A stretch of 64,000 bases of DNA, taken from assembly GCF_057098645.1 (NCBI RefSeq), contig NZ_CM169472.1; one strand, written 5' to 3'. This document shows, one piece after another, positions 3,881 to 10,889 of this stretch. Below the pieces are notes generated by a model. The model was given only the letters and a program-made list of their open reading frames with translations, made no database searches and was not told where the DNA came from. Positions within the stretch are counted from its first letter, which is position 1; every line of letters starts with the position of its first letter. The position numbers were made by a program, and so were the translations under genes.

Positions 3881-6800
3881 TTACGCCTTCTCGATGTTGA
3901 CTAAGAACGCTTTATATTCCGGCGTTTGCGAGTTTGCATCACCGACATTCGGCGTCAGAGTGTTAGCGATATAACCTTTACGCGCGACACCCTCAAAGCC
4001 CCAGTGGATTGGAATACCCACCGTTTCAACCTGCTGACCATTTACATTCAGCGGTTTCAGACGACGCGTTACCACAGCCACCGCGCGGATAAAGCCACGC
4101 TTGCTTGAGACAGTGACACGATCGCCATTATTAATGCCTTTCGCCGCCGCCAGCGTTTCGCTGATTTCCACAAACTGTTCCGGCTGAGCAATTGCGTTGA
4201 GCAATGCGTGCTTGGTCCAGGTGTGGAAGTGCTCGGTCAGACGATAGGTCGTACCCACATACGGGAACTGCTCTTTTTTACCCATCCGCAGTGCGTCTTG
4301 TTCATACAGACGAACAACCGGGTTAGACACCACGTTCGGATGCAGCGGGTTAGTGCCCAGTGGCGTTTCAATCGGCTCGTAGTGTTCCGGGAACGGACCT
4401 TCCGCCATTTTGTTGATGGCAAACAGGCGTCCCATCCCTTCCGGCTGCATGATAAACGGCCCGGTTGGCGTACCCGGTGCGGCATTGCCGAAGTCAGGAA
4501 TATCGTTACCCGTCCACTTGCTGCCGTTCCACTGGATCAGCATCCGTTTCGGATCCCACGGTTTACCGTTGATATCCGCCGAAGCACGGTTGTACAGCAC
4601 GCGACGGTTGAGCGGCCACGCCCAAGCCCATCCCAGCGTATTCCCCAGACCGGACGGGTCGGAGTTATCGAGGTTAGCCATCTGGTTGCCCTGCTCTGTC
4701 CAGCTACCGGTGTAGATCCAGCAAGAAGATGCGGTTGTACCGTCATCACGCAGATGCGCAAAGCTACTCAGCAACTGACCTTTCTTCGCAATCAGCACGC
4801 CATTAGCATCATAGAGATCTTCCAGCGCATAGCCGTTGTTCTCTTTAGCTACTTCGTCAGATTGCGGTTCGTGCGGCTGCTTGTAGTTCCAGCTCATCTT
4901 CATCAGCGGTTCTACGCCTTTACCACCTTCGGCCTGGTACAGCTCGCGCAGGTGATGGTAGATACCCGCCAGAATTTCACCGTCGTTACGCGCTTCGCCC
5001 GGCGCATCCTGACCTTTCCAGTGCCACTGCAGCCAGCGACCGGAGTTAGCAATAGAACCATCTTCTTCAGCAAAGCAGGTCGAAGGCAGACGGAATACTT
5101 CAGTCTGAATAGACGCCGGATCGACATCGTTCGACTCGCCGTGGTTCTGCCAGAAGGTTGAGGTTTCAGTCACCAGCGGATCGATAACCACCATGTACTT
5201 CAGCTTGCTCAGGCAGCTCACCACTTTGTTTTTGTCCGGGAAGGACGCAACCGGGTTAAAGCCCTGGCAGAAATAACCGGTGACTTTGCCTTCATCCATC
5301 ATGTTGAAATACTTGATGACGTCGTAGGTCTGGTCCCACTTCGGCAGCCAGTCATAGCCCCAGTTGTTCTCTTTCTGCGCGGCATCGCCATAGAAAGATT
5401 TCATCAGGCTAACGAAGAACTTCGGATAGTTGCTCCAGTAGTTCACCTGACCAGCCAGCGTCGCTTTCGGCGTGTTCGCTTCCAGATACGACTGCAAATC
5501 AACCTGTTTTTCTGACGGCAGCGTCAGATAACCTGGCAGGCTGGTAGAGAGCAGACCTAAGTCAGTCAGACCCTGAATGTTGGAGTGACCACGCAATGCA
5601 TTCACGCCGCCACCGGCCATACCCATGTTACCGAGCAGCAACTGGATCATCGCCATAATACGGATGTTCTGCGCACCCACGGTGTGCTGCGTCCAGCCCA
5701 GCGCGTACAGGAAGGTGGTTGTGCGATCCGGTGCGCTGGTGGAGGCCAGCACTTCACACACTTTCAGGAAGTCGGCTTTTGGCGTACCACAGATGTTTTC
5801 AACAACGTCCGGCGTGTAGCGGGAAACGTGCGCTTTCAGCAGGTTCCACACACAGCGCGGATGAGTCAGTGTTTCATCGCGTTTCGCATAGCCGTTTTCA
5901 TCGAACTGATAGTTCCAGGACGATTTATCGTATTGCCGTTTTTCAGCGTCGTAGCCGCTGAACAGACCGTCTTCGAAAGCAAAATCATCACGCACCAGCA
6001 GGCTGGCGTTGGTGTAATGCTTAACGTATTCGGCGTTGATTTTGTCGTTTTCGATCAGGTAGCGCAAAACGCCAGACAGGAACGTAATGTCCGTACCGGA
6101 ACGAATAGGTGCGTAAATATCCGCCACAGAAGCGGTACGCGTAAAACGGGGATCGACAACGATCAAGGTTGCATCGTTGTTGTTTTTCGCTTCCATCGCC
6201 CAGCGGAAACCGACGGGATGCGCTTCAGCAGCGTTACCGCCCATTACCATTACGACGTTAGCGTTTTTGATATCCACCCAGTGGTTGGTCATCGCACCGC
6301 GACCAAATGTTGGAGCAAGACTTGCTACCGTTGGTCCGTGTCAGACGCGCGCCTGGTTGTCTACCGCCAGCATCCCGAGGGAGCGGGCAAATTTCTGGGT
6401 CAGCATCCCGGTTTCGTTGCTGGCACCGGAAGCACACAGCATACCGGTAGAAAGCCAACGGTTTACCGTTACGCCCTGCTCGTTCTTTTCAATAAAGTTA
6501 GCGTCACGGTCAGCTTTCATCAGCTTCGCAATACGGGAGAATGCTTCTTCCCAGCTAATGCGCTGCCATTTGTCAGAACCTAGCGCACGATATTCCGGGT
6601 AGCGCAGACGGTTTTCGCTGTTGACGTAATCCAGCAAACCGGCCCCTTTCGGGCACAGCGCACCACGGCTTACCGGATGATCCGGGTCACCTTCAATGTG
6701 ATAAATCGCTTCTCTGGCGTTTTTCGCGCCATCACCCAGGCTATACATCAATAGCCCGCAACCTACGGAACAGTATGTGCAGGTGTTACGGATCTCTTTA

Positions 6801-6928
6801 GCGCGTAATAATTTGTAGTTTCGCGCCTGAGCCAGTGCTTGCTTCGGGGCAAAGCCCAATGCCGCTACTGTTGTTCCAGCCATACCGCCCGCGCAGATTT
6901 TAAAAAATTGTCTGCGACTGACGTCCAT
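3881..6928 (-). CDS. fdnG: Formate dehydrogenase-N alpha subunit, selenocysteine-containing (in-frame UGA at 6341-6343), Tat signal
   Basis: Two ORF-track pieces (6341-6928 and 3881-6292) in the same frame separated only by TGA; N-terminal SRRQFFK twin-arginine motif; total 1015 codons. Confidence 0.9.
6290..6343 (-). other. UGA-Sec codon plus downstream SECIS stem-loop in fdnG mRNA
   Basis: mRNA reads GUC UGA CAC GGA CCA ACG GUA GCA AGU CUU GCU CCA ACA UUU GGU CG, which can fold as a stem-loop immediately 3' of UGA. Confidence 0.7.
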
Positions 6929-7159: not shown

Positions 7160-8041
7160 ATGACACGACAAAAAGCAACGCTCATAGGGCTGATAGCGAT
7201 CATCCTGTGGAGCACGATGGTAGGATTGATTCGCGGTGTCAGTGAGGGGCTCGGCCCGGTCGGCGGCGCAGCTGCTATCTATTCATTAAGCGGGCTGCTG
7301 TTAATCTTCACGGTTGGATTTCCGCGTATTCGGCAAATCCCGAAAGGCTATTTGCTCGCCGGGAGTCTGTTATTCGTCAGCTATGAAATCTGTCTGGCGC
7401 TTTCCTTAGGGTATGCGGCGACCCGTCATCAGGCGATTGAAGTGGGTATGGTGAACTATCTATGGCCCAGCCTGACAATTCTCTTTGCCATTCTGTTTAA
7501 TGGTCAGAAAACCAACTGGTTGATTGTACCAGGATTATTATTAGCCCTCGTCGGCGTCTGCTGGGTGTTAGGCGGTGACAATGGGTTACATTATGATGAA
7601 ATCATCAATAATATCACCACCAGTCCATTGAGTTATTTCCTGGCGTTTATTGGTGCGTTTATCTGGGCCGCTTATTGCACAGTAACGAATAAATACGCCC
7701 GCGGATTTAACGGAATTACCGTTTTTGTCCTGCTAACGGGAGCAAGTCTGTGGGTTTACTATTTTCTCACGCCACAACCAGAAATGGTATTTAGCACGCC
7801 CGTCATAATTAAACTCATCTCTGCGGCATTTACCTTAGGATTTGCTTATGCTGCATGGAATGTCGGTATATTGCATGGCAACGTCACCATTATGGCGGTA
7901 GGTTCGTATTTTACGCCCGTACTTTCCTCAGCGCTTGCAGCCGTGCTGCTCAGCGCCCCACTGTCGTTCTCATTCTGGCAAGGCGCGCTAATGGTCTGCG
8001 GCGGTTCCCTGCTCTGCTGGCTGGCGACACGTCGTGGTTAA
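7160..8041 (+). CDS. yddG: DMT-family aromatic amino acid exporter
   Basis: 293-aa polytopic membrane protein; synteny. Confidence 0.9.
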   Translation: MTRQKATLIGLIAIILWSTMVGLIRGVSEGLGPVGGAAAIYSLSGLLLIFTVGFPRIRQIPKGYLLAGSLLFVSYEICLALSLGYAATRHQAIEVGMVNYLWPSLTILFAILFNGQKTNWLIVPGLLLALVGVCWVLGGDNGLHYDEIINNITTSPLSYFLAFIGAFIWAAYCTVTNKYARGFNGITVFVLLTGASLWVYYFLTPQPEMVFSTPVIIKLISAAFTLGFAYAAWNVGILHGNVTIMAVGSYFTPVLSSALAAVLLSAPLSFSFWQGALMVCGGSLLCWLATRRG

Positions 8042-8045
8042 AATA

Positions 8046-8070
8046 ACTGCCGGGTCTACGGCCCGGCAGT
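8046..8070 (+). terminator. Hairpin ACTGCCGGG-N7-CCCGGCAGT after yddG (no clear U-tract)
   Basis: 9-bp inverted repeat 5 bp after yddG stop. Confidence 0.35.
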
Positions 8071-8300
8071 TAATCAGATAAATTCCGACAATATTAAAAG
8101 AATAAATTTCAAATACCAGCAATTCACCTTATATCTCATTTCGACTTCGATCACATATCGATAAATAATATTATTTCATCTATTTTTCTCATTGTTTTTA
8201 ATCACCATTCTATTTTAAAAACAGCATGTCATTTATAAATGACGCCGTTTAAAATTCGTTTAGGAAATACGTTTAACGATAATTAAAAGGATTCTGTTAA

Positions 8301-9398
8301 ATGAAATTAAAAATAGCGGTGGTTGTAACTGGTTTGTTAGCTGCGAACGTAGCACACGCTGCCGAAGTCTATAACAAGGATGGTAATAAACTCGACCTTT
8401 ATGGCAAGGTTACCGCTCTACGTTATTTTACTGATGATAAGCGTGACGATGGTGATAAAACTTATGCCCGTCTCGGCTTTAAAGGAGAAACGCAAATCAA
8501 TGATCAAATGATTGGTTTTGGTCACTGGGAATATGATTTTAAAGGCTATAACGATGAAGCCAACGGCTCGCGCGGCAACAAGACCCGTCTGGCCTATGCT
8601 GGTTTAAAAATTAGTGAATTTGGCTCTCTGGACTATGGTCGTAACTACGGTGTCGGCTATGACATTGGTTCATGGACCGATATGTTGCCAGAATTTGGTG
8701 GCGATACCTGGAGTCAGAAAGATGTCTTCATGACATACCGTACCACCGGTGTAGCAACCTATCGCAACTACGATTTCTTTGGCTTAATTGAAGGGCTGAA
8801 CTTTGCCGCGCAATATCAAGGCAAAAATGAACGTACTGACAACAGTCATCTTTATGGTGCTGACTACACGCGTGCCAACGGTGACGGTTTCGGTATCTCC
8901 TCAACTTATGTTTATGATGGCTTTGGTATCGGTGCGGTATATACCAAATCCGATCGGACAAATGCGCAGGAAAGAGCCGCTGCTAATCCTCTCAATGCCT
9001 CCGGTAAGAATGCAGAACTGTGGGCCACAGGTATAAAGTATGATGCCAACAACATCTACTTTGCAGCTAATTACGCTGAAACATTAAACATGACCACCTA
9101 TGGGGATGGTTATATCTCGAACAAAGCACAAAGTTTTGAAGTGGTGGCGCAATATCAATTCGACTTCGGCTTGCGCCCATCACTCGCTTACCTGAAATCG
9201 AAAGGCAGAGATCTGGGCCGCTACGGCGACCAGGACATGATTGAGTATATCGACGTTGGTGCGACGTATTTCTTCAACCAAAATATGTCGACCTATGTTG
9301 ATTATAAAATCAACCTGATTGATGAAAGCGACTTTACCCGTGCCGTAGATATTCGCACCGATAACATCGTCGCAACGGGCATTACCTATCAGTTCTAA
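8301..9398 (+). CDS. yddL: General outer-membrane porin (OmpC/OmpF/PhoE family), intact 365 aa
   Basis: Signal peptide ending AHA|AEVY; beta-barrel porin sequence with C-terminal Phe; low-GC flanks; the K-12 ortholog is a pseudogene as far as I recall. Confidence 0.8.
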
Positions 9399-9411
9399 CA
9401 TCCTCTCCTGA

Positions 9412-9437
9412 CCAGCCCTTCTCTGGGCTGGTTTTTG
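9412..9437 (+). terminator. Rho-independent terminator (CCAGCCC-N6-GGGCTGG + TTTTT)
   Basis: GC stem followed by T5, 14 bp after porin stop. Confidence 0.8.
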
Positions 9438-9567
9438 ATTTAAGTGCTGCTGTATGACTCCTTAAGTAAAAATGAGCAATTTTTGATATTTCTGATCATT
9501 CACCTCAATTAATATTATTCCATACCCTCCGGGGACATCTTACTATAATATTTATTGATGAGTGATT

Positions 9568-10827
9568 ATGACCAATATTAATACAGCTTGTGTAAAAAAT
9601 AATGCCAGTTATCAATTTAATAACGCATTACCTAACAAAGAAACCATCTCCAGCAATTTTTGTGAACGACTAGAACAATGGGGTAATAAGTCGCTTAATA
9701 ATGGTGAAGAAAGAGCAATTGCCGTGGAGCGAATTAAAGAAGCTTACAATTCGAACATGGCATCTCTTGATTTGTCATATCTTGATTTGAGTGAGTTGCC
9801 GCCTATCCCTTCGACAGTTAATACGTTAAATCTGGAAAACAATTGTCTAACTTGCCTTGACTTTGCTGACAATGCTAGTCTCGTCAATATCAACCTCAGC
9901 TTTAATAAAATTAAAACGATAACCTTTCCAAATGAATCAAAACTGGAAAATATTTATATTGATCATAACGATCTGGAAAGTTTAGATTTTAAAAACCAAA
10001 ATTCATTGATTAATCTGGAAGCACAAAATAACAACCTGACAAAAATTAATATTTCTGAAAGTTATAAACTGAAATTTCTTAATCTTGATTATAACAAACT
10101 ATCATCACTGGATCTCTCCCGGCAAGAGTCTCTGATTGAGTTAAGTGCCCATCACAATATGATCACTGACCTTATATTACACAATCATCCCAGGATGAAA
10201 ACAATCACTTTAAACGACAACCATATTGCACATTTAAACACCAAAACCACTACAAAACTTGAATATTTAAACTTAAGCAATAACAATTTATTGCCAACCA
10301 ATGACATTGATCAACTAATATCATCAAAACATCTTTGGCATGTATTAGTTAACGGCATCGACAATGATTCACTTGCACAAATGCAGTACTGGACTGCAGT
10401 AAGAAATATAATTGATGACACTAATGAAGTGACCATTGATTTATCTTATAATCTGGCAATCACAAATATCGATACCAGTGATGAACATCTTGTAGAAGTA
10501 AGCGATAATTCAGAAGGTAATTATATAAAAGACAATGACTCAATGTCTATTCGTTATAGATCAAAATATTATTCCAGAGATTCCGCCTTAATAGAAGAAG
10601 AAACAATATTTTCTGACGCAGAACTAAAAGCTATTCTGCCTATGCGTCGCATGTACGGGGTTGGTGACTATAAGTCAAATTCCTCTTCTCTATCCTCACT
10701 CTCGGGGCTCAAGGACCCAACGGGCACACCCGTCTGTTATTATATTCATAATGAGAGTAAACCTTCCTTAGGTTATGGTCCAACATGCAATAATTGGTTA
10801 AGCCAATCCTTTACAACAGAGTTATAA
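9568..10827 (+). CDS. yddK: Leucine-rich repeat protein with IpaH/SspH-like N-terminal LRR region, no NEL domain
   Basis: ~22-residue LxxLxLxxNxL repeats; N-terminal W..GEER..AV.RIKE...LDLS.L.LSELP resembles IpaH-family LRR N-termini; AT-rich. Confidence 0.75.
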   Translation: MTNINTACVKNNASYQFNNALPNKETISSNFCERLEQWGNKSLNNGEERAIAVERIKEAYNSNMASLDLSYLDLSELPPIPSTVNTLNLENNCLTCLDFADNASLVNINLSFNKIKTITFPNESKLENIYIDHNDLESLDFKNQNSLINLEAQNNNLTKINISESYKLKFLNLDYNKLSSLDLSRQESLIELSAHHNMITDLILHNHPRMKTITLNDNHIAHLNTKTTTKLEYLNLSNNNLLPTNDIDQLISSKHLWHVLVNGIDNDSLAQMQYWTAVRNIIDDTNEVTIDLSYNLAITNIDTSDEHLVEVSDNSEGNYIKDNDSMSIRYRSKYYSRDSALIEEETIFSDAELKAILPMRRMYGVGDYKSNSSSLSSLSGLKDPTGTPVCYYIHNESKPSLGYGPTCNNWLSQSFTTEL

Positions 10828-10860: not shown

Positions 10861-10889
10861 GAAAAACATTGTATTACTACGGAGCAGTT

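What the first reader, a model, noticed from the sequence alone, without database searches (positions are those of the whole stretch)
8100..9437. Intact porin gene in a low-GC segment where K-12 has a pseudogene
A complete 365-aa OmpC/OmpF-family porin with signal peptide and C-terminal Phe, its own AT-rich upstream region and a canonical terminator. From memory the K-12 counterpart (yddL) is a fragment, so this strain may express an extra porin, which matters for phage receptor and antibiotic permeability phenotypes.
Basis: partly seen in the sequence, partly recalled or inferred. Interest (0 to 1): 0.35.

Follow-up and report, generated by a model that had tools for sequence, protein, structure and literature searches.

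The report
Intact E. coli OmpD-type porin gene
This E. coli strain carries a complete gene for an extra outer-membrane pore protein, the counterpart of Salmonella OmpD, which K-12 has lost by deletion; about one in five sequenced E. coli keep it and it is already described in the literature, so the finding is correct but ordinary.

Summary
Window 8301-9398 (+) is an intact 365-aa general porin with a 20-aa signal peptide, a C-terminal Phe, a 29%-GC upstream region and a strong terminator.

K-12 yddL (96 aa) is the first 93 codons of this gene. A 1,547-bp deletion at a CGGCAA microhomology cut off the rest.

The gene lies between yddG and narU, where Salmonella and Citrobacter koseri carry ompD. 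It is 73-77% identical to those porins, 62% to OmpC and 68% to prophage NmpC. It never groups with NmpC/Lc in bootstrap trees. It is therefore the E. coli ortholog of OmpD, not OmpC as RefSeq names it, and not a prophage porin.

Intact alleles show dN/dS of 0.02-0.06, like the neighbouring yddG. About 19-20% of 5,426 complete E. coli genomes keep the gene. About 55% have the K-12 lesion and about 20% a total deletion.

The gene is already published: EDL933 Z2239 in O-island 62, and EAEC 042 Ec042-1601, called "apparently functional ompD". Two peptides were reported from an O157 proteome.

Expression in this strain is untested. Verdict: already known, low interest.

The parts
7160..8041 (+). 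yddG (aromatic amino acid exporter). Conserved upstream neighbour that anchors the synteny with Salmonella and Citrobacter ompD.
   Evidence: NCBIfam NF008676 YddG, 471.7 bits. An EamA-family gene lies directly upstream of ompD in Salmonella (L003) and C. koseri (L004/L005).
8042..8300 (+). AT-rich (29.3% GC) upstream regulatory region of the porin gene. The ~170 bp nearest the ATG are homologous to the region upstream of Salmonella and C. koseri ompD.
   Evidence: GC content. The alignment shows conserved blocks: TCGATCACA, AAATAAT, TTAAAAA.AG, CGTTTA, AGGAAA.ACG and AATTA.AAGGATT.
8226..8255 (+). Promoter-like site ATGTCA-18-TAAAAT. This is a consensus match only; the transcription start is not mapped.
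   Evidence: 9 of 12 matches. The TAAAAT aligns with TAACAA in Salmonella. Inference only.
8287..8291 (+). Shine-Dalgarno AAGGA, 9 nt upstream of the ATG.
   Evidence: Read from the sequence. It is conserved in Salmonella and C. koseri.
8301..8360 (+). Signal peptide, 20 aa: [20 protein letters not shown], cleaved before AEVYNK. It is one Val codon shorter than the common E. coli allele.
   Evidence: the common allele reads MKLKIVAVVV.... The 3-bp gap at 8315 relative to RM9872 is. All solved mature porins start at the aligned AE.
8314..8324 (+). Sequence complementary to the RybB sRNA 5' seed (UAGCGGUGGUU), at the position homologous to the best predicted RybB pairing site in Salmonella ompD.
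   Evidence: duplexfold gives -14.6 kcal/mol, against -18.3 for Salmonella ompD. Only 2.2% of random 45-nt tiles of the window reach -14.6. Inference; not tested.
8361..9398 (+). Mature porin (345 aa) plus stop codon. It has the L3 motif PEFGGD, the constriction residues K16/R42/R82/R132/D113/E117 (OmpF numbering) and a C-terminal YQF.
8579..10125 (.). Segment absent from K-12: a 1,547-bp deletion between CGGCAA copies at 8573-8578 and 10120-10125. It removes porin codons 94-365, the terminator and the 5' part of the first LRR gene.
9410..9438 (+). Intrinsic terminator (GACCAGCCC-TTCTCT-GGGCTGGTT plus a T run).
9562..10827 (+). First leucine-rich-repeat gene (EspR2-like, intact 421-aa ORF). 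Downstream neighbour, 34% GC.
   Evidence: EspR2' naming for Sakai ECs2074/2075 comes from PMC5931665.
10869..12146 (+). Second leucine-rich-repeat gene (EspR1, a type III secretion effector), 34% GC. narU follows from about 12470.
   Evidence: RefSeq names the O157:H7 ortholog espR1.

Best explanation
The ORF is an intact gene for a classical trimeric, 16-stranded general-diffusion porin. It is the Escherichia coli ortholog of Salmonella OmpD. It is ancestral to the yddG-narU interval of enterobacteria and has been inherited vertically in E. coli. Most E. coli lineages, K-12 included, have lost it through several independent deletions. Shown here: gene integrity, family membership, orthology by position and by tree, the K-12 deletion junction, and purifying selection on intact alleles. 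Inferred: the protein is exported by Sec via its 20-aa signal peptide, inserted by the Bam machinery (terminal Phe) and forms a non-specific pore with the usual L3 constriction. It is transcribed on its own, from an AT-rich promoter region homologous to that of Salmonella ompD, and ends at its own terminator. It probably keeps RybB (sigma-E) control but has lost the MicC site. It would add to permeability and offer an extra surface target for phages, colicins and antibodies.
For: Family. Pfam Porin_1 matches at full length, 2e-133, and solved OmpK36/OmpC align at about 1e-126. All constriction residues and PEFGGD are conserved. Orthology. Salmonella and C. koseri have fdnIHG(-), yddG(+), porin(+), then narU/narZ in the same order and orientation. 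Identity is 77% to C. koseri, 73% to Salmonella OmpD, 68% to NmpC, 62% to OmpC and OmpN, and 60% to OmpF. In 300 NJ bootstraps the OmpD/NmpC clade gets 100%, the grouping with chromosomal Citrobacter/Enterobacter OmpD gets 67%, and the grouping with prophage NmpC/Lc gets 0. The ~170 bp upstream are homologous to the ompD upstream region. Vertical descent and function. Among intact E. coli alleles dN/dS is 0.02-0.06 with dS up to 0.18. yddG in the same strains gives dS up to 0.28 and dN/dS 0.005-0.05. K-12 remnant. Distribution. 1,111 of 5,426 complete genomes cover at least 80% of the finding's 1,338-bp interval (upstream region, CDS and terminator), and every full-length row examined is annotated as an intact CDS. 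Own terminator. Literature. Ec042-1601 is called an 'apparently functional ompD' (PMC2808357). Z2239 gave 2 peptide hits in an O157 DMEM proteome (PMC3420319).
Against: No expression data exist for this strain. The published proteomic support is only 2 peptides and could come from peptides shared with other porins. The 29%-GC upstream region is the kind of DNA that H-NS silences, so the gene could be quiescent like OmpN or OmpS1/S2 (my own knowledge; not tested). The E. coli branch is long: 19 positions invariant in the other 14 OmpD/NmpC-clade sequences are changed in the window protein. This particular allele also has private changes. It has lost one Val in the signal peptide, and it carries K327Q at a Lys that is invariant in 114 of 114 homologs carrying the motif. 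The MicC pairing site known for Salmonella ompD is degraded, -6.8 against -15.8 kcal/mol, so regulation is not simply OmpD-like. Support for the exact sister group is moderate (67%).
Confidence: 0.88

Rival explanations
1. The gene is intact but quiescent: it is silenced (for example by H-NS) under ordinary conditions, like OmpN in E. coli or OmpS1/OmpS2 in Salmonella Typhi. The strain would then not actually display an extra porin in most situations.
For: The upstream region is 29.3% GC and the flanking LRR genes are 34% GC. The promoter-like sites are only 9/12 matches. Only 2 peptide hits were reported in the O157 proteome, against 36 for intimin. I found no paper reporting it as a visible outer-membrane band.
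Against: dN/dS of 0.02-0.06 across lineages that differ at 17-18% of synonymous sites shows the product is used somewhere. Peptides were reported at all. The upstream region is homologous to that of Salmonella ompD, which from my own knowledge is an abundant porin. This rival concerns the level of expression and is compatible with the gene's identity as stated.
Confidence: 0.35
2. The porin is part of a recently acquired low-GC genomic island (O-island 62). On this view it was brought in together with the LRR effector genes, possibly from a phage that carried an NmpC/Lc-type porin.
For: Okeke et al. regard the whole island as recently acquired on GC grounds (PMC3079680). The porin CDS is 44.8% GC, against 50% for Salmonella and C. 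koseri ompD. Phage-borne porins of the same clade exist (P0072, P0083).
Against: A porin sits in the same position and orientation in Salmonella and C. koseri, and ompD is adjacent to yddG in E. hormaechei (PMC11874173). The upstream DNA is homologous too. Allelic divergence tracks that of the core neighbour yddG. The gene never groups with NmpC/Lc in 300 bootstraps. No phage or mobility genes flank it. The LRR genes, which replace GFA-smvA-smvR, may well be acquired; the porin is not.
Confidence: 0.07
3. In this particular strain the gene is starting to decay: it is nominally intact but functionally impaired by private mutations.
For: Four of the 14 differences from the closest genome over 24 kb fall in the 1.3-kb porin region, where about 0.8 are expected. 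They are two upstream SNPs, loss of a Val in the signal peptide, and K327Q at a Lys invariant in 114 of 114 homologs.
Against: The reading frame is complete. The signal peptide keeps its n-, h- and c-regions and the AHA|AE cleavage site. Residue 327 lies in a conserved FNKNM motif that, from my recollection of the OmpF fold, is a periplasmic turn rather than part of the pore. The numbers are small and the region was chosen after the fact.
Confidence: 0.06

Closest known systems
Salmonella enterica OmpD (STM1572; listed here as P0036, 'porin OmpD')
   Same: It has the same chromosomal slot and orientation, directly downstream of yddG and upstream of narU/narZ. Protein identity is 73% and both fall in the same clade at 100% bootstrap. 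The upstream region and Shine-Dalgarno are homologous. A RybB-seed complement sits at the same place in the signal-peptide codons.
   Different: The E. coli branch is long. The CDS is 44.8% GC against 50.4%. The 12-bp MicC site is broken by two synonymous changes. The downstream neighbours are LRR effector genes instead of GFA-smvA-smvR. Only about 1 in 5 E. coli genomes keep the gene.
E. coli Z2239 (EDL933, O-island 62) and Ec042-1601 (EAEC 042 'ompD')
   Same: This is the same gene. The O157:H7 allele differs from the window CDS at 16 nucleotide positions plus one 3-bp indel, giving 4 amino-acid differences counting the gap, and it has identical flanks. It has been described as lying between yddG and narU, with K-12 yddL matching its 5' end (PMC3079680), and as an apparently functional ompD (PMC2808357).
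   Different: The window allele is 365 aa rather than 366 (it lacks one Val in the signal peptide) and carries K327Q. PMC2808357 equated the K-12 counterpart with the nmpC pseudogene. By position the K-12 remnant is yddL.
NmpC (DLP12 prophage) and Lc (phage PA-2) porins
   Same: They belong to the same OmpD/NmpC/Lc clade of general porins and are 68% identical.
   Different: They are prophage-borne and lie next to lysis genes. They have a different signal peptide (MKKLTVAISAVAASVLMAMSAQA). They form their own group at 100% bootstrap, and the window protein never joins it.
OmpC (the name RefSeq/PGAP gives this gene)
   Same: It is a general porin of the same Pfam family. The window protein scores 487.9 bits on the NCBIfam 'porin OmpC' subfamily model, just over the cut-off of 484.
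   Different: It is only 61.6% identical to K-12 OmpC. True ompC lies next to micF/rcsD, not between yddG and narU. The OmpC label is a naming artefact of a broad subfamily model.
Quiescent porins (E. coli OmpN, S. Typhi OmpS1/OmpS2)
   Same: These are extra general porins with AT-rich upstream DNA and are rarely seen in standard outer-membrane profiles (this comparison rests on my own knowledge). The window protein is 61.9% identical to OmpN.
   Different: They occupy different loci (ompN lies next to micC) and fall in a different clade. Whether the window gene is silenced is untested.

Membership tests
Enterobacterial general porins (Pfam PF00267 Porin_1; OmpC/OmpF/PhoE type) | Full-length match to the family profile | tested here: met
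   Residues 26-365 match profile positions 1-337 of 337, E 2e-133, 445 bits against a cut-off of 23.7.
Enterobacterial general porins (Pfam PF00267 Porin_1; OmpC/OmpF/PhoE type) | Cleavable Sec signal peptide, with the mature protein starting AE(V/I)YNKDGNK | tested here: met
   [20 protein letters not shown]|[10 protein letters not shown]. Mature chains of solved porins align from residue 21. The judgement is from sequence and alignment; no signal-peptide predictor was available.
Enterobacterial general porins (Pfam PF00267 Porin_1; OmpC/OmpF/PhoE type) | L3 constriction loop (PEFGGD) and the basic/acidic eyelet residues K16, R42, R82, R132, D113, E117 | tested here: met
   All six residues and the motif are conserved in the alignment with K-12 OmpF and OmpC.
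Enterobacterial general porins (Pfam PF00267 Porin_1; OmpC/OmpF/PhoE type) | C-terminal aromatic residue (Phe) for outer-membrane assembly | tested here: met
   The protein ends ...ATGITYQF.
Enterobacterial general porins (Pfam PF00267 Porin_1; OmpC/OmpF/PhoE type) | Trimeric 16-stranded beta-barrel with channel activity | not testable with these tools
   Inferred from an end-to-end alignment, nearly gap-free, with solved OmpK36 and OmpC. No structure prediction or experiment was run.
OmpD orthologous group (Salmonella OmpD and chromosomal counterparts) | Chromosomal position directly downstream of yddG, on the fdnGHI ... narU/narZ backbone, same orientation | tested here: met
   Window, Salmonella L003 and C. 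koseri L004/L005. E. hormaechei yddG-ompD adjacency is reported in PMC11874173.
OmpD orthologous group (Salmonella OmpD and chromosomal counterparts) | Closer to OmpD proteins than to any other porin paralog, and groups with them in a tree | tested here: met
   Identity is 73-77% to OmpD proteins, against 59-62% for OmpC/F/N/PhoE and 68% for NmpC. Bootstraps: 100% for the OmpD/NmpC clade, 67% with chromosomal Citrobacter/Enterobacter OmpD, 0/300 with NmpC/Lc. The method was NJ only on 19 sequences.
OmpD orthologous group (Salmonella OmpD and chromosomal counterparts) | Homologous 5' regulatory region | tested here: met
   Conserved blocks over about 170 bp upstream of the ATG.
OmpD orthologous group (Salmonella OmpD and chromosomal counterparts) | MicC sRNA pairing site in codons 23-26. 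The site itself is known from the Salmonella literature, recalled from memory. | tested here: not met
   Salmonella and C. koseri form a 12-bp duplex (-15.8 and -15.7 kcal/mol). The window and O157 alleles give -6.8 and AST85 gives -10.0. This is a regulatory feature of the Salmonella gene, not a criterion for orthology.
OmpD orthologous group (Salmonella OmpD and chromosomal counterparts) | RybB sRNA seed pairing in the signal-peptide codons | tested here: inconclusive
   A 9-bp duplex with two G-U pairs gives -14.6 kcal/mol, against -18.3 in Salmonella. It lies at the homologous position, and 2.2% of random tiles do as well.
OmpC proper (RefSeq label 'porin OmpC') | The ompC locus (next to micF and rcsD) and high identity to OmpC | tested here: not met
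   K-12 ompC lies between ftp and micF/rcsD, whereas the window gene lies between yddG and narU. Identity is 61.6%. The NCBIfam subfamily score exceeds its cut-off by only 4 bits.
Prophage porins NmpC/Lc | Prophage context and membership of the NmpC/Lc subclade | tested here: not met
   No phage genes flank the gene. K-12 nmpC sits in DLP12 beside lysis genes. The window protein joined the NmpC/Lc group in 0 of 300 bootstraps.

The most novel reading that the evidence does not exclude
The E. coli OmpD ortholog is a functional, expressed, lineage-restricted porin under a trade-off. It has been kept under strong purifying selection in EHEC O157/O145 and some other lineages, beside the EspR effector genes. 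Elsewhere it has been destroyed at least three or four separate times, perhaps because it is a phage, colicin or antibody target. Its post-transcriptional control has been rewired relative to Salmonella (MicC site lost, RybB kept). On this reading its presence or absence measurably changes antibiotic permeability, phage host range or persistence in cattle.
Probability: 0.3. Interest if true: 0.35.

Novelty: already known. Interest (0 to 1): 0.15.

Why it matters
Porin repertoire affects antibiotic entry, phage and colicin receptors, and antibody targets. Salmonella OmpD is cited as a key target of a protective antibody response (PMC2808357). An OmpD-type porin present in EHEC O145/O157 but absent from K-12 and from about 80% of sequenced E. 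coli is a real strain difference, and it deserves the correct name.

The practical yield is modest and lies in annotation:
- RefSeq calls this gene 'porin OmpC'.
- The literature has conflated it with prophage nmpC.
- K-12 yddL has recently been discussed as a possible small four-strand outer-membrane protein (PMC9976479). It is actually a deletion remnant of ompD.

None of this opens a new question.

Tried and rejected
- **Rfam scan of 7900-9700, both strands.** It gave only a chance miRNA hit at E = 0.3, so there is no known RNA element here.
- **Minus-strand and alternative-frame ORFs inside the gene (73-77 aa).** I treated them as chance ORFs; they have no family support.
- **A CRP half-site near the conserved TCGATCACA block.** It gives only about 8/10 matches by eye in both E. 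coli and Salmonella, which is too weak to claim.
- **The transcription start.** Promoter scans give 9/12 matches only, and 9 sites were found against 4.9 expected, so the start is left unmapped.
- **First bootstrap attempt.** It timed out. I repeated it with a fast Kimura-distance NJ.
- **H-NS exclusion as the reason TraDIS flagged K-12 yddL as essential.** The paper does not mention H-NS, so I dropped the idea.
- **Literature searches for ECs2076 and Z2239.** Most hits were unrelated strings.
- **Whether the first LRR gene is intact only in this strain.** It is not; RM9872 has the same 421-aa ORF.
- **Structure prediction.** I judged it unnecessary, since the protein aligns end to end with solved porins at E about 1e-126.

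Full report
**1. Observation**

The ORF list shows a single long ORF at 8301..9398 on the + strand. It encodes 365 aa, from [28 protein letters not shown]... to ...ATGITYQF.

- It matches Pfam Porin_1 over the whole model (E 2e-133).
- It aligns end to end with solved OmpK36, OmpC, OmpK37, PhoE and OmpF chains. The best E-value is 9e-127, and every mature chain begins at query residue 21.
- The six eyelet residues K16, R42, R82, R132, D113 and E117 (OmpF numbering), the PEFGGD motif and the terminal Phe are all present.
- The 259-bp region between yddG and the porin is 29.3% GC. The CDS is 44.8% GC, and the two genes downstream are 34%. yddG and narU are about 50%, and the whole window is 48.9%.
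- A 9-bp G+C-rich hairpin at 9410-9433 followed by TTTTT folds at -18.2 kcal/mol (z = -4.4; 0 of 200 shuffles fold as well).

**2. The K-12 comparison**

MG1655 has yddG, yddL (291 bp, 96 aa), yddK, the yddJ pseudogene and narU in the same interval. BLAST of the window against that locus gives three collinear blocks, which means K-12 has two deletions.

- The first deletion removes 1,547 bp between two CGGCAA copies (window 8573-8578 and 10120-10125). YddL is thus porin codons 1-93 followed by KNL and a stop.
- The second removes 653 bp at a 12-bp repeat, CATTGATTTATC, shared by the two leucine-rich-repeat genes, and it fuses them in frame. K-12 yddK is that chimera.

RefSeq already flags K-12-type yddL in other strains as 'porin; incomplete; missing C-terminus'.

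**3. What the gene is**

- *Closest relatives.* A search of the large protein collection returns, outside E. coli, a C. koseri porin at 77% identity. Citrobacter, Enterobacter and Lelliottia porins follow at 71-74% and Salmonella 'porin OmpD' at 71-72%. Prophage NmpC/Lc types come in at about 66%.
- *Synteny.* The contigs that encode Salmonella OmpD and the C. koseri protein show the order fdnI-fdnH-fdnG (-), an EamA transporter of 293 aa (yddG, +), the porin (+), a GFA-domain gene, smvA (-), a TetR gene, narU and narZ. The window has the same backbone. The difference is that two LRR genes occupy the place of GFA-smvA-smvR.
- *Upstream DNA.* The ~170 bp upstream of the start codon, including the Shine-Dalgarno, align with the Salmonella and C. 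koseri sequences.
- *Identity and trees.* In a MAFFT alignment with the K-12 paralogs, identities are 61.6% (OmpC), 61.9% (OmpN), 59.9% (OmpF), 58.9% (PhoE) and 68.1% (NmpC reconstructed across its IS5). In 300 NJ bootstraps the OmpD/NmpC/Lc clade is recovered every time. The window protein joins the chromosomal Citrobacter/Enterobacter group in 67% of replicates and never joins the NmpC/Lc group.

The gene is therefore the E. coli ortholog of ompD. The RefSeq name 'porin OmpC' reflects a subfamily model that is cleared by only 4 bits, not identity with ompC. True ompC lies beside micF.

**4. Ancestral or acquired?**

Okeke et al. proposed that the whole 'O-island 62' was recently acquired and that K-12 was disrupted by insertion of yddK (PMC3079680). 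For the porin this does not fit.

- Its position, orientation and upstream DNA are shared with other genera.
- Among six E. coli alleles, synonymous divergence reaches 0.17-0.18 with dN/dS of 0.02-0.06. The core neighbour yddG in the same strains gives dS up to 0.28 and dN/dS of 0.005-0.05.

The gene has been evolving inside E. coli, under constraint, for about as long as its neighbour. The E. coli branch is nevertheless long and AT-shifted. GC3 is 0.45 against 0.57 in Salmonella, and 19 positions invariant in the other 14 OmpD/NmpC-clade sequences are changed, mostly V>I, L>I/M/F and A>S. The 34%-GC LRR genes may well be an insertion that replaced GFA-smvA-smvR.

**5. Distribution**

- Of 5,426 complete E. 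coli genomes, 4,277 match the finding's 1,338-bp interval (window 8100-9437). Of these, 1,111 cover at least 80% of it, and most of the rest cover only query 2-479/482, the K-12-type stump.
- A 6.7-kb query from yddG to narU, sampled at 60 evenly spaced ranks, gives 11 full loci, 33 of K-12 type and 12 with yddG abutting narU. The remaining four were other lesions: two partial-deletion loci, one IS1-associated locus and one match to yddG only.
- One genome has IS1 in place of the whole segment.
- The protein collection also holds a porin-LRR fusion (P0005), an N-terminally truncated form (P0013) and a disrupted E. albertii copy (P0012).

Loss has therefore happened several times. The carriers I saw include O157:H7, O145:H28, O169:H41, an ETEC and human isolates. 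The literature adds O55:H7, phylogroup D strains and some Shigella.

**6. Mechanism and regulation (inference)**

The product should be exported by Sec, assembled by Bam and form a non-specific trimeric channel. The hairpin-plus-T-run after the stop codon argues for a monocistronic unit.

I used K-12 RybB and MicC sequences, with Salmonella ompD as a positive control.

- *RybB.* The RybB 5' seed pairs at +14..+24 of the window mRNA at -14.6 kcal/mol, against -18.3 at the homologous Salmonella site. Only 2.2% of random tiles of the window do as well.
- *MicC.* The 12-bp MicC duplex is -15.8 in Salmonella and -15.7 in C. koseri. It falls to -6.8 in the window because of two synonymous changes, GAG>GAA and GTA>GTC.

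I therefore expect sigma-E/RybB repression to persist and MicC control to be lost. Neither was tested. The promoter-like site at 8226-8255 is only a consensus match.

**7. Is it expressed?**

There is no evidence for this strain. [quoted passage not shown] Together with the purifying selection, this makes some expression likely. The AT-rich upstream DNA leaves open that expression is low or conditional.

**8. This allele**

The window is 99.9% identical to O145:H28 genomes over 24 kb. There are 14 differences from RM9872, and four lie in the porin region:

- 8225 C/T (upstream);
- 8264 G/A (upstream);
- a 3-bp deletion at 8315 that removes one Val from the signal peptide;
- 9279, which changes Lys327 to Gln in the FNKNM motif, where 114 of 114 homologs carrying the motif have Lys.

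The frame is intact, and I regard these changes as probably tolerated.

**9. Novelty**

The gene, its location, the relation of yddL to its 5' end and the label 'apparently functional ompD' are all already in print (PMC3079680; PMC2808357). It is annotated in more than a thousand RefSeq genomes.

This analysis adds corrections rather than discoveries:
- yddL, not nmpC, is the K-12 remnant of ompD.
- yddK is a deletion chimera, not an insertion.
- The porin is ancestral rather than part of an acquired island.
- The RefSeq name OmpC is misleading.

The finding is correct, ordinary and already known.

Noticed in passing
window 9562-10827 and 10869-12146; K-12 locus L002: The two 34%-GC leucine-rich-repeat genes downstream are the EspR2-like and EspR1 type III effector genes. 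K-12 yddK is an in-frame chimera of the two, made by a 653-bp deletion at a shared 12-bp repeat (CATTGATTTATC). This contradicts the published idea that yddK was inserted into the island (PMC3079680).
   Followed up: partly
window 8225, 8264, 8315, 9279: Four of the 14 differences from the nearest genome (O145 RM9872) over 24 kb fall in the 1.3-kb porin region, where about 0.8 are expected. One is K327Q, at a Lys invariant in 114/114 homologs carrying the motif. Another is loss of a Val from the signal peptide. This may be chance or local selection.
   Followed up: partly
window 8301-9398; RefSeq records: RefSeq/PGAP names this gene 'ompC: porin OmpC' in more than a thousand genomes. It scores 487.9 bits against a cut-off of 484 on a broad subfamily model, yet it is only 62% identical to OmpC and sits at the ompD locus. 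This is a systematic misnomer.
   Followed up: yes
K-12 yddL (L002 5739-6029): A 2023 paper (PMC9976479) discusses YddL as a possible four-strand outer-membrane protein in osmotic response. A TraDIS study lists yddL as 'essential only by TraDIS' (PMC5821084). The sequence shows it is 93 codons of ompD plus 3 out-of-frame codons, so both readings look doubtful.
   Followed up: partly
P0005, P0013, P0012; L018: Other decay forms of the same locus exist. They include a porin-EspR2 fusion ORF (376 aa), a 5'-truncated porin (269 aa, seen on 168 contigs), an E. albertii copy with a scrambled N-terminus, and an IS1 that replaces the whole yddL-yddJ segment in strain GSH8M-2.
   Followed up: no
P0001: A single metagenome protein combines an OmpC/OmpK36-like N-terminal third with a C-terminal two-thirds nearly identical to this porin. 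It is either a recombinant porin or an assembly chimera.
   Followed up: no
window 6341-6928 (-): The fdnG reading frame appears as a 195-aa ORF that stops at an in-frame TGA. This is the expected selenocysteine codon of formate dehydrogenase-N, not a pseudogene, and RefSeq annotates the full 1,015-aa product in RM9872.
   Followed up: no
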